From: Escherichia coli
GTDB lineage: Bacteria > Pseudomonadota > Gammaproteobacteria > Enterobacterales > Enterobacteriaceae
Reading direction: 5' to 3' (one strand)
NCBI RefSeq assembly: GCF_045037415.1
Contig: NZ_CP173438.1
Length of the DNA stretch: 64,000 nt
Shown here one piece after another: positions 29,839 through 32,192 of the stretch. The stretch's first letter is position 1. Each line of letters opens with the position of its first letter. Under the pieces are notes generated by a model. It made no database searches. It worked only from the letters and a program-made list of their open reading frames with translations, and was not told where the DNA came from. The position numbers and the translations under genes were made by a program.

Positions 29839-30735
29839 ATGACAGACACACACTATATTGGTCGCTTCGCCCCCTCTCCTTCCGGCGAGCTTCATTTTGG
29901 TTCTCTGATTGCTGCGCTTGGCAGCTATTTGCAGGCTCGCGCCCGGCAAGGTCGCTGGCTGGTACGCATTGAAGATATCGACCCGCCTCGTGAAGTTCCC
30001 GGTGCCGCAGAGACTATCCTGCGCCAGCTGGAACATTACGGCCTACACTGGGACGGCGACGTTCTCTGGCAATCGCAACGTCACCACGCCTATCGCGAAG
30101 CACTCGCCTGGTTACATGAGCAAGGACTAAGTTATTACTGCACCTGCACGCGTGCGCGTATTCAAAACATTGGCGGTATTTACGACGGTCATTGCCGGGA
30201 TTTGCATCATGGACCAGACAACGCCGCAGTACGTATCCGCCAGCAGCATCCAGTCACCCAGTTTACTGACCTGCTGCGAGGCATTATTCACGCCGACGAA
30301 AAACTGGCACGGGAAGATTTTATTATTCATCGCCGTGATGGTTTGTTTGCCTATAACCTGGCGGTGGTGGTGGATGATCACTTCCAGGGCGTGAGCGAAA
30401 TTGTCCGCGGGGCAGATTTGATCGAACCGACTGTGCGGCAAATCTCGCTGTACCAGCTTTTTGGCTGGAAAGTGCCAGATTACATCCATTTACCGCTGGC
30501 GCTTAATCCACAAGGCGCTAAACTTTCCAAGCAGAATCATGCGCCTGCGTTGCCGAAAGGCGATCCGCGCCCGGTGTTAATCGCGGCACTTCATTTTCTG
30601 GGTCAGCAGGTAGAAACACACTGGCAGGATTTCAGCGTCGAGCAAATCCTTCAGTCAGCCGTCAAAAACTGGCGGCTCACCGCAGTGCCTGAGTCGGCAA
30701 TTGTAAATTCAACATTCTCAAATGCGTCATGCTGA
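29839..30735 (+). CDS. gluQ: glutamyl-Q tRNA(Asp) synthetase
   Basis: ORF 29809..30735; start placed at ATG 29839 ([22 protein letters not shown], class I HIGH-like motif) because the upstream ORF extension overlaps the dksA terminator. Confidence 0.8.
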
Positions 30736-30794
30736 GCTATGATTAGCCGCTATTTTTTTGTCCTGAATGATGTTTGACACTACCGAGGTGTACT

Positions 30795-32192
30795 ATTTTT
30801 ACCCGAGTCGCTAATTTTTGCCGCAAGGTGCTAAGCCGCGAGGAAAGCGAGGCTGAACAGGCAGTCGCCCGTCCACAGGTGACGGTGATCCCGCGTGAGC
30901 AGCATGCTATTTCCCGCAAAGATATCAGTGAAAATGCCCTGAAGGTAATGTACAGGCTCAATAAAGCGGGATACGAAGCCTGGCTGGTTGGCGGCGGCGT
31001 GCGCGACCTGTTACTTGGCAAAAAGCCGAAAGATTTTGACGTAACCACTAACGCCACGCCTGAACAGGTACGTAAACTGTTCCGTAACTGCCGTCTGGTG
31101 GGTCGCCGTTTCCGTCTGGCTCATGTGATGTTTGGCCCGGAGATTATCGAAGTTGCGACCTTCCGTGGACATCACGAAGGTAACGTCAGCGACCGCACGA
31201 CCTCCCAACGCGGGCAAAACGGTATGTTGCTGCGCGACAACATTTTCGGCTCCATCGAAGAAGACGCCCAGCGCCGCGATTTCACTATCAACAGCCTGTA
31301 TTACAGCGTGGCAGATTTTACCGTCCGTGATTACGTTGGCGGCATGAAGGATCTGAAAGACGGCGTTATCCGTCTGATTGGTAACCCGGAAACGCGCTAC
31401 CGTGAAGATCCGGTACGTATGCTCCGCGCGGTTCGTTTTGCCGCCAAATTGGGCATGCGCATCAGCCCGGAAACCGCCGAGCCGATCCCACGCCTGGCAA
31501 CCTTACTGAACGATATCCCACCGGCACGTCTGTTTGAAGAATCGCTGAAACTGTTGCAAGCGGGCTACGGTTACGAAACCTATAAGCTGCTGTGTGAATA
31601 TCATCTGTTCCAGCCGCTGTTCCCGACCATTACCCGCTACTTCACGGAAAATGGCGACAGCCCGATGGAACGCATTATTGAGCAGGTACTGAAGAATACC
31701 GATACGCGTATCCATAACGATATGCGCGTGAACCCGGCGTTCCTGTTTGCCGCCATGTTCTGGTACCCATTGCTGGAGACGGCACAGAAAATTGCTCAGG
31801 AGAGCGGCCTGACCTATCACGACGCTTTCGCACTGGCGATGAACGACGTGCTGGACGAAGCCTGCCGTTCACTGGCGATCCCGAAACGTCTGACTACGCT
31901 AACTCGCGATATCTGGCAGTTGCAGTTGCGTATGTCCCGTCGTCAGGGTAAACGCGCATGGAAACTGCTGGAGCATCCTAAGTTCCGTGCGGCATACGAC
32001 CTGTTGGCCTTACGAGCCGAAGTTGAGCGTAACGCTGAACTGCAACGTCTGGTGAAATGGTGGGGTGAGTTCCAGGTTTCCGCGCCGCCAGACCAAAAAG
32101 GGATGCTTAACGAACTGGATGAAGAACCGTCACCGCGTCGTCGTACTCGTCGTCCACGCAAACGCGCACCGCGTCGTGAGGGTACTACATGA
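30795..32192 (+). CDS. pcnB: poly(A) polymerase I
   Basis: ORF 30774..32192; established PcnB N-terminus (M)[12 protein letters not shown] corresponds to an ATT codon at 30795-30797 (known non-canonical AUU start); basic C-terminal tail. Confidence 0.85.

What the first reader, a model, noticed from the sequence alone, without database searches (positions are those of the whole stretch)
30795..30797. pcnB uses a non-AUG (AUU) initiation codon
The established PcnB N-terminus (M)[10 protein letters not shown] aligns with an ATT codon at 30795; the only upstream in-frame alternative is a TTG at 30774 that adds 7 residues. AUU initiation of pcnB is documented in E. coli and limits poly(A) polymerase levels. 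ORF callers restricted to canonical starts will misplace it.
Basis: established knowledge. Interest (0 to 1): 0.3.

Follow-up and report, generated by a model that had tools for sequence, protein, structure and literature searches.

The report
pcnB starts at an AUU codon

Summary
Window 30795-30797 is ATT, in frame with a 465-codon PcnB ORF ending at 32192. The only canonical in-frame start upstream is TTG at 30774, just after an in-frame TGA at 30768.

- RefSeq starts pcnB at this ATT, and the curated PcnB model aligns from residue 1.
- A GAGGTG Shine-Dalgarno sequence lies 4 nt upstream (-7.2 kcal/mol). The TTG (+0.4) and the next downstream GTG (+1.9) have none.
- In 80 Enterobacteriaceae species the codon is ATT in 80/80 and GAGGTG is invariant. 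In 43/80 there is no canonical in-frame start upstream.
- Residues 2-13 are invariant, with synonymous changes only.
- ATT is also at the homologous codon in Erwinia, Plesiomonas, Aeromonas and Colwellia.

The likely mechanism comes from the literature and was not tested here. AUU is a poor start codon that IF3 discriminates against, which keeps toxic PAP I scarce. This is the Binns & Masters 2002 result, so it is already known.

Two small additions:
- Public databases carry the same protein as 465, 472 and 454 aa versions.
- A 29-nt block starting exactly at ATT has almost no synonymous variation, unlike neighbouring genes.

The parts
30795..30797 (+). ATT (AUU) initiation codon of pcnB
   Evidence: sequence. 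(RefSeq CDS starts here). (ATT in 80/80 Enterobacteriaceae species). (ATT in Erwinia, Plesiomonas, Aeromonas, Colwellia and 5 unnamed contigs; ATC in one). (the only invariant-Ile column with a single codon).
30785..30790 (+). Shine-Dalgarno sequence GAGGTG, 4 nt before ATT (6 nt after the GAGG core)
   Evidence: invariant in 80/80 at fixed spacing. (duplex with the 16S 3' tail -7.2 kcal/mol, top 1.35% of window positions). (retained in Aeromonas, Plesiomonas and Erwinia).
30795..32192 (+). pcnB coding sequence: 465 codons plus stop, poly(A) polymerase I
   Evidence: translation. (NF008634, 996.9 bits against a cutoff of 702). (PDB 3AQK/L/M/N poly(A) polymerase, E about 1e-284). (RefSeq annotation; gene order gluQRS-pcnB-folK).
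30795..30823 (+). 29-nt block at least 95% conserved in 80 species, starting exactly at ATT; synonymous variation almost absent in codons 2-9
   Evidence: the longest conserved run in the -100..+200 interval. (normalised synonymous entropy 0.115 against a gene mean of 0.576, sd 0.10; lowest of 459 windows). (7 of the gene's 13 single-codon columns lie in codons 1-12). (no such trough in gluQ or folK in the same loci).
30774..30776 (+). TTG: the rival canonical in-frame start (472-aa version), judged not used
   Evidence: (no SD, +0.4 kcal/mol). (TTG at -21 in only 26/80 species; 43/80 have no canonical in-frame start upstream; an in-frame stop within 21 nt in 5). (indels and non-synonymous changes upstream of the SD).
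30828..30830 (+). GTG at codon 12: the rival downstream start (454-aa version), judged not used
   Evidence: first downstream canonical start in 80/80. (no SD, +1.9 kcal/mol). (residues 2-11 invariant, synonymous changes only). (codon 12 is GTT, GTA or ATA in Erwinia, Colwellia and three unnamed contigs, P0035, P0043 and P0054).
30715..30743 (+). Candidate sigma-70 promoter TTCTCA-17 nt-TATGAT overlapping the gluQRS stop codon. It sits where upstream pcnB promoters are reported, but its identity with pB, p1 or p2 is not verified.
   Evidence: the only promoter-like site in 30600-31000; shuffles give a mean of 0.3. (a TATGAT/TATCAT element followed by a G+C-rich stretch recurs in Aeromonas, Erwinia and several unnamed contigs). 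PMC2939334 reports promoters upstream of the AUU, but its figure is not available.

Best explanation
This is the E. coli pcnB gene for poly(A) polymerase I. Its translation starts at the AUU codon at 30795. A strong GAGGUG Shine-Dalgarno sequence 4 nt upstream, set in a poorly structured initiation region, positions the 30S subunit there, and initiator tRNA decodes AUU as fMet.

AUU is a near-cognate start that initiation factor IF3 discriminates against. Initiation is therefore inefficient, about 1-2% of AUG in reporter measurements. PAP I stays at a few dozen molecules per cell, and overproduction is toxic.

Shown here:
- the anatomy of the start site;
- the match to curated annotation;
- that the coding signature begins exactly at ATT;
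- that ATT and the SD are conserved, and no canonical codon replaces ATT, in the 80 Enterobacteriaceae species sampled and, outside that family, in four named genera from three orders of Gammaproteobacteria.

Taken from the literature: experimental use of AUU, limitation of expression, and toxicity.

Inferred: that IF3 is the discriminating agent for pcnB as it is for infC, and that selection keeps the codon weak.
For: Sequence and annotation:
- ATT, its frame and the upstream stop.
- RefSeq CDS starts at ATT in three genomes checked.
- NF008634 aligns from residue 1.
- The 465-aa form is Swiss-Prot PCNB_ECOLI.

Initiation signals:
- SD -7.2 kcal/mol for ATT, against +0.4 (TTG) and +1.9 (GTG +33).
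- The initiation-region RNA folds less well than its shuffles (z = +1.41; 190 of 200 shuffles fold at least as well).

Comparative evidence in 80 species:
- ATT in 80/80 and GAGGTG in 80/80.
- 43/80 have no in-frame canonical start upstream.
- The codon before ATT varies among T, I, N, A and P, and indels occur further upstream.
- Residues 1-13 are invariant with only synonymous changes.

Deeper phylogeny:
- ATT in Erwinia, Plesiomonas, Aeromonas veronii, Colwellia and five unnamed contigs, ATC in one, and never ATG, GTG or TTG.
- The N-terminal motif is retained in frame as [FI]-x-[RQSNY]-[VI]-x-x-[FL]-[CY]-[RK]-[KQ].

Within E. coli: the 70-nt region is identical in 5416 of 5424 genomes, and one variant examined keeps ATT.

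Literature:
- The AUU start and translational limitation (Binns & Masters 2002) are cited in PMC2939334, PMC3561954, PMC4447247 and PMC9764084.
- AUU gives 1-2% of AUG, and infC and pcnB are the only confirmed E. coli AUU genes (bioRxiv 10.1101/063800).
- PAP I is present at about 30-50 molecules per cell and is toxic when raised (PMC3561954).
Against: - No experimental start-site mapping could be examined. The primary paper is not held. I found no ribosome-profiling or N-terminal proteomics statement about pcnB.
- PMC3561954 is internally inconsistent: its introduction says UUG and its discussion says AUU.
- Several papers call the ribosome-binding site 'poor'. By duplex energy it looks as good as those of neighbouring genes. 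The limitation may therefore rest on the codon alone, or my energy measure misses something.
- Comparative data show that coding starts at or before ATT and that no canonical codon is available in most species. They cannot by themselves prove which codon the ribosome uses in this strain, which does have the TTG.
Confidence: 0.95

Rival explanations
1. Translation starts at the canonical UUG at 30774, giving a 472-aa protein. On this reading the ATT is just an internal isoleucine codon.
For: - It is the only canonical in-frame start upstream.
- It is what a mechanical ORF list reports.
- The 472-aa version is widespread in public databases (fragments P0003 and P0031).
- The introduction of PMC3561954 names UUG as the initiation codon.
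Against: - No SD: the 17 nt upstream give +0.4 kcal/mol.
- TTG at -21 is present in only 26/80 species, and 43/80 have no canonical in-frame start upstream at all.
- In 5 species an in-frame stop lies within 21 nt of ATT.
- The seven 'codons' between TTG and ATT show non-synonymous changes, and there are indels upstream of the SD. The conserved part of that interval is the SD itself.
- RefSeq and Swiss-Prot use ATT.
Confidence: 0.03
2. Translation starts at the GUG at 30828 (codon 12), giving a 454-aa protein. On this reading the 11 codons upstream are untranslated leader.
For: - It is the first canonical in-frame start downstream of the upstream stop in species that lack the TTG, and it is GTG in 80/80 Enterobacteriaceae.
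- The 454-aa version is common in databases (P0006, P0007 and P0010).
Against: - No SD (+1.9 kcal/mol).
- Residues 2-11 are invariant in 80 species with only third-position synonymous changes.
- They remain a recognisable in-frame peptide in Aeromonas, Plesiomonas and Colwellia.
- Codon 12 is GTT, GTA or ATA, none of them canonical starts, in Erwinia, Colwellia, P0043, P0035 and P0054.
Confidence: 0.02
3. In addition to the AUU start, a shorter PAP I is made from the internal AUG at 30948 (Met51) on a transcript from the internal sigma-S promoter pS1. The locus would then encode two isoforms.
For: - PMC2939334 reports that the Liu & Parkinson promoter downstream of the AUU is active with sigma-S. 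It notes two anti-PAP I bands on westerns and raises this possibility itself.
- A 14-nt block (30915-30928) and two 5-nt blocks just upstream (30891-30895 and 30900-30904) are at least 95% conserved at synonymous sites, 20-57 nt before the ATG.
Against: - A weak SD by my measure (+0.2 kcal/mol), although the -20..-4 scoring window cuts part of GAAGG.
- The product would lack residues 28-50, which are conserved across Gammaproteobacteria and present in the crystallised construct.
- The authors themselves call the idea unproven.
- The promoter scan finds no consensus-like site there.
Confidence: 0.12

Closest known systems
E. coli K-12 pcnB AUU start (Binns & Masters 2002, Mol Microbiol 44:1287)
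   Same: It is the same gene. The protein differs from the K-12/DH1 protein at one residue (A465T). The 36 nt compared across the TTG-SD-ATT region are identical to DH1, and the 70-nt region 30762-30831 is identical in a K-12 record (H29) and in 5416 of 5424 E. coli genomes. RefSeq annotates the same ATT.
   Different: Nothing of substance differs. The strain is not K-12: the window is 100% identical to strain SK1144 over the 501-base query and about 98% to K-12.
infC (IF3) AUU start codon with IF3 autoregulation
   Same: An ATT start annotated by RefSeq, preceded by a strong SD (GGAGG...ATT), read directly in DH1. The literature pairs infC with pcnB as the only two confirmed AUU-initiated E. 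coli genes.
   Different: For infC, the protein that discriminates against AUU is the gene's own product, which forms a feedback loop. PAP I has no known role in start-codon selection, so in pcnB the AUU acts as an attenuator and at most as a passive reader of IF3 activity. IF3 dependence of pcnB was not tested here.
Enterococcus faecalis ebpA ATT start
   Same: A rare ATT start that attenuates expression, and that annotation had placed at a different, canonical codon (PMC4447247).
   Different: An unrelated gene (pilus tip protein) in a Gram-positive organism. There the mis-annotated canonical start was 120 bp downstream.

Membership tests
PcnB / poly(A) polymerase I (NCBIfam NF008634 equivalog) | Whole-protein score above the curated cutoff of the equivalog model | tested here: met
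   996.9 bits against a cutoff of 702. Residues 1-464 align to profile positions 1-468 of 469. The CCA-adding enzyme models all score below their cutoffs.
PcnB / poly(A) polymerase I (NCBIfam NF008634 equivalog) | Identity to the structurally characterised E. coli enzyme and the conserved gluQRS-pcnB-folK gene order | tested here: met
   PDB 3AQK/3AQL/3AQM 'Poly(A) polymerase', E about 1e-284, residue-for-residue match to 3AQM; gene order; a tRNA-synt_1c (gluQRS-type) gene lies upstream in seven of the eleven distant loci.
Genes initiated at AUU (infC/pcnB class of non-canonical, IF3-discriminated starts) | ATT at the codon where the conserved coding sequence begins, with no canonical start able to account for the conserved N-terminal residues | tested here: met
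   ATT in 80/80; 43/80 have no in-frame ATG, GTG or TTG upstream; residues 2-11 invariant with synonymous-only changes; the next canonical start is at codon 12. ATT in four named genera outside Enterobacteriaceae.
Genes initiated at AUU (infC/pcnB class of non-canonical, IF3-discriminated starts) | A Shine-Dalgarno sequence at functional spacing from the AUU | tested here: met
   GAGGUG, -7.2 kcal/mol, 4 nt (6 nt from the GAGG core) before AUU; invariant at fixed spacing in 80/80.
Genes initiated at AUU (infC/pcnB class of non-canonical, IF3-discriminated starts) | Experimental demonstration that the ribosome initiates at the AUU (N-terminal sequence or mutagenesis) | not testable with these tools
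   Known only through citations of Binns & Masters 2002. The paper itself is not held. No ribosome-profiling statement on pcnB was found.
Genes initiated at AUU (infC/pcnB class of non-canonical, IF3-discriminated starts) | Expression rises when AUU is replaced by AUG, or when IF3 discrimination is relaxed | not testable with these tools
   Limitation by the AUU is stated in secondary sources. IF3 dependence specifically for pcnB was not found in the texts I could read. The indirect support obtained here is that no canonical codon occurs at this position in 90 loci.

The most novel reading that the evidence does not exclude
The stretch from the SD through ATT to +29 (30784-30823) may be more than a weak start site. 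In Enterobacteriaceae it is conserved at the nucleotide level and synonymous variation is almost abolished, which is not seen at the 5' ends of the neighbouring gluQ and folK genes. It could therefore be a dedicated regulatory element. For example, it could bind an sRNA or protein, or be a context tuned so that AUU initiation tracks IF3 activity and growth rate. On that reading PAP I synthesis would be actively regulated at initiation rather than merely damped.
Probability: 0.15. Interest if true: 0.45.

Novelty: already known. Interest (0 to 1): 0.12.

Why it matters
PAP I tags RNAs for decay and is toxic when overproduced. The weak AUU start is one of the ways the cell keeps it at a few dozen copies.

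For genome annotation, pcnB is a standard trap. The same protein circulates in public databases with three different N-termini (465, 472 and 454 aa). Any pipeline limited to ATG, GTG and TTG will misplace the start.

Nothing here changes current understanding. The analysis re-derives a 2002 result from comparative data alone, in a sample of 80 Enterobacteriaceae species and ten loci from outside that family.

Tried and rejected
- **Primary paper.** Binns & Masters 2002 is not held. A guessed PMC id for the Ribo-RET paper failed. Its bioRxiv version does not mention pcnB or infC. So I have no direct experimental start mapping.
- **PDB structures.** The constructs start at residue 28 and say nothing about the N-terminus.
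- **Structured RNA element at the start.** No Rfam match at E <= 1. The region folds less well than shuffles. A weak GGUG/UACC hairpin around the AUU is not kept in Aeromonas. Rejected.
- **Out-of-frame upstream ORF** (ATGATG at 30767, 15 codons, overlapping the AUU). The ATGs are absent outside Escherichia and there is no SD. Judged chance.
- **Perfect TTGACA at 30774-30779 as a -35 box.** The nearest -10-like hexamers are 11-14 nt away, and the scan reports no promoter there. The hexamer is not conserved in Enterobacter-type sequences. Not pursued.
- **Protein search returned fragments.** The search for homologous proteins with a 111-aa N-terminal query listed only short and partial proteins among its best 120 hits. 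This was still useful for seeing N-terminal variants.
- **Taxonomic reach.** The single genome-contig scan kept only Enterobacteriaceae. Wider taxa had to be reached through 11 exact-protein look-ups. Six of those contigs remain taxonomically unnamed.

Full report
**What is in the sequence.** Window 30795-30797 is ATT. It is followed by TTT ACC CGA GTC GCT AAT TTT TGC CGC AAG, which encodes [10 protein letters not shown], and the frame stays open for 465 codons to a stop ending at 32192. Upstream in frame there are only eight codons before a TGA at 30768. The only canonical start among them is TTG at 30774. A mechanical ORF list duly reports the ORF as 30774..32192, 472 aa.

**What the gene is.**
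- The window is E. coli. The 501 bases around the site match 5424 of 5426 complete E. coli genomes and are 100% identical to strain SK1144.
- The gene order is sfsA-dksA-gluQRS-pcnB-folK-yadN.
- The protein scores 996.9 bits on the NCBIfam PcnB equivalog NF008634 (cutoff 702), with residues 1-464 aligned to profile positions 1-468.
- It matches the crystallised E. coli poly(A) polymerase, although those constructs begin at residue 28 and say nothing about the N-terminus.
- It differs from the K-12/DH1 protein only at the last residue.

**Annotation.**
- RefSeq starts the pcnB CDS exactly at this ATT in SK1144, DH1 and a third strain.
- An exact-sequence look-up found the K-12 protein in public collections in three N-terminal versions: 465 aa (ATT; the Swiss-Prot PCNB_ECOLI sequence), 472 aa (TTG) and 454 aa (GTG at codon 12). 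Each occurs on at least 1000 contigs.
- Fragments with each kind of N-terminus also turned up in the homology search.
Current NCBI annotation gets it right, and also calls ATT in Plesiomonas and Colwellia.

**Initiation signals.**
- GAGGTG at 30785-30790 lies 4 nt before ATT. Its duplex with the 16S 3' tail is -7.2 kcal/mol, and only 1.35% of window positions reach that value. It is comparable to dksA (-9.2), folK (-6.2) and sfsA (-5.2).
- The TTG (+0.4), the GTG at codon 12 (+1.9) and the internal ATG at 30948 (+0.2) have essentially no SD.
- The RNA from 30750 to 30860 folds less stably than its shuffles (z = +1.41), so the site is accessible.
- There is no Rfam match.
- Several papers describe the pcnB ribosome-binding site as 'poor'. 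By this simple measure it is not, and I leave that discrepancy open.

**Comparative test within Enterobacteriaceae.** I used one genome per species for 80 species, with PcnB 86-99% identical.
- The homologous codon is ATT in 80/80, and GAGGTG is invariant at the same spacing in 80/80.
- 43 of 80 species have no in-frame ATG, GTG or TTG between the upstream stop and ATT. The TTG at -21 exists in only 26. In five species an in-frame stop lies within 21 nt.
- Upstream of the SD the sequences show indels. The triplet just before ATT encodes T, I, N, A or P in different species.
- From ATT onward the first 13 residues are invariant and every nucleotide change is synonymous.
- The coding signature therefore begins exactly at ATT.
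- Of 14 invariant-Ile columns in the protein, this is the only one that uses a single codon. The others mix ATT, ATC and ATA.

**Beyond the family.** I recovered DNA for eleven more distant homologues by exact-protein look-up.
- ATT with GAGGTG 4 nt upstream is retained in Erwinia, Plesiomonas shigelloides, Aeromonas veronii and one unnamed contig.
- ATT with a different SD occurs in Colwellia and four unnamed contigs.
- One unnamed contig has ATC at the homologous position.
- The N-terminal peptide stays in frame and recognisable: IFSQIANFCRKV, IIKRVIDLCKKV and similar.
- Codon 12 is GTT, GTA or ATA in five of these, which rules out the 454-aa start there.
- Vibrio cholerae, as called, lacks the motif and starts at an ATG.
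- A canonical codon never occupies the position in the 90 loci that have the motif, although ATT to ATG is a single transversion. That argues for selection to keep the start weak.
- PMC3561954 says Binns & Masters already reported phylogenetic evidence for AUU in many Proteobacteria, so this analysis repeats their point in a separate sample rather than discovering anything.

**Mechanism.** The steps below come from the literature, not from tests here.
- pcnB translation starts at AUU and is thereby limited (Binns & Masters 2002, as cited).
- infC and pcnB are the only confirmed AUU-initiated E. coli genes.
- AUU initiates at about 1-2% of AUG in reporters.
- PAP I is present at about 30-50 molecules per cell and is toxic when raised.

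That IF3 is the discriminator for pcnB, as it is for infC, is an inference from general knowledge of IF3. I checked the infC comparison directly. In DH1, RefSeq starts infC at ATT behind GGAGG. The difference is that infC closes a feedback loop through its own product, whereas pcnB does not.

**Rivals.**
- The TTG start (confidence 0.03) and the GTG start (0.02) are disfavoured by the SD and conservation data above.
- A third idea is additive rather than exclusive. PMC2939334 proposes that an internal sigma-S promoter (pS1) and the AUG at 30948 could give a shorter PAP I.
- I see short blocks at 30891-30895, 30900-30904 and 30915-30928 that are conserved at synonymous sites just upstream of that AUG. 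I cannot tie them to pS1 without the paper's figure, and the short protein would lack conserved residues. I give it 0.12.

**An extra observation.**
- The longest conserved run in the -100..+200 interval is a 29-nt block that starts exactly at ATT (30795-30823).
- Normalised synonymous entropy for codons 2-12 is 0.115, against a gene mean of 0.576 (sd 0.10). This is the lowest of 459 windows.
- Seven of the gene's 13 single-codon columns lie in the first 12 codons, including an invariant rare CGA at codon 4.
- gluQ and folK in the same loci show no such 5' trough.
- In Plesiomonas the same residues are encoded with many synonymous differences, so the nucleotide constraint appears specific to Enterobacteriaceae.
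- The simplest reading is selection on the initiation region of a gene that depends on a marginal start codon. A dedicated regulatory site is not excluded.

**Verdict.** The feature has been known since 2002 and is in the reference annotation. Interest is low (0.12).

Noticed in passing
window 30795-30823 (with the SD at 30784-30790): A 29-nt block at least 95% conserved in 80 Enterobacteriaceae species starts exactly at the ATT. Synonymous variation in codons 2-12 is the lowest in the gene (0.115 against a mean of 0.576), and the rare Arg codon CGA at codon 4 is invariant. The neighbouring genes gluQ and folK show no such 5' trough. Plesiomonas encodes the same residues with many synonymous differences.
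   Followed up: partly
window 30891-30895, 30900-30904 and 30915-30928: A second trough of synonymous variation (codons 36-46; CGCAAAGATATCAG is nearly invariant) lies 20-57 nt upstream of the internal ATG at 30948. It may correspond to the sigma-S promoter pS1 or the alternative start discussed in PMC2939334. The figure giving its position was not available.
   Followed up: no
window 30774 / 30795 / 30828 (public protein collections): The identical K-12 PcnB exists in databases as 472-aa (TTG), 465-aa (ATT) and 454-aa (GTG) versions, each on at least 1000 contigs and all within one 90% cluster of 6191 members.
   Followed up: yes
window 30767-30814: An out-of-frame ATGATG opens a 15-codon ORF ([15 protein letters not shown]) that overlaps the SD and the ATT. 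It has no SD and the ATGs are absent outside Escherichia, so it is probably chance. Database protein P0001 ([17 protein letters not shown]...) fuses this frame to pcnB. That fusion requires extra T's in the T-run after ATT, and P0001 is truncated further on, so it looks like a homopolymer sequencing error.
   Followed up: partly
window 30715-30743: This is the only sigma-70-like site in 30600-31000: TTCTCA, 17 nt, TATGAT. It overlaps the gluQRS stop codon and is followed by a G+C-rich stretch (TAGCCGC) and a T-run. The TATGAT/TATCAT plus G+C-rich arrangement recurs in Aeromonas, Erwinia and unnamed contigs. V. cholerae has GCTATTATTAGCGCC at the same place. This would fit the reported ppGpp/DksA sensitivity of pcnB promoters, but I did not verify its identity with pB.
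   Followed up: partly
L084 601-620 (unnamed 558-kb contig, protein P0043): The codon homologous to the E. coli ATT is ATC (tgaGGTGtatt ATC TTT AAT CGA GTC), with an ATT 3 nt upstream and an in-frame ATG 12 nt upstream that overlaps the SD. This could be an AUC-initiated pcnB, but which codon is used is ambiguous.
   Followed up: partly
L093 511-700 (Vibrio cholerae): The Vibrio pcnB genes as called start at ATG and lack the [14 protein letters not shown] N-terminal motif (V. cholerae MNNNDFEPS...; V. parahaemolyticus MHMNTNDYTPS...). Both the AUU start and the N-terminal peptide appear to be absent in this lineage.
   Followed up: partly
L087 601 (Erwinia sp. MAG, protein P0021): The NCBI annotation of this MAG starts pcnB at an ATA codon eight codons upstream of the conserved SD and ATT. 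This is a different non-canonical call from the one used for E. coli, Plesiomonas and Colwellia.
   Followed up: no
window 29299/29317 (dksA), 29809/29839 (gluQRS), 32992/33016 (yadN): For three neighbouring genes the longest-ORF start in the ORF listing lies upstream of the RefSeq start: dksA GTG 29299 against ATG 29317, gluQRS ATG 29809 against ATG 29839, and yadN 32992 against 33016. The RefSeq gluQRS start has no SD by duplex energy (+1.5 kcal/mol).
   Followed up: no
window 30743-31057, minus strand: A 104-aa GTG-initiated ORF runs antisense to the pcnB 5' end, including the conserved block. I treated it as a by-product of the coding strand and did not examine it.
   Followed up: no
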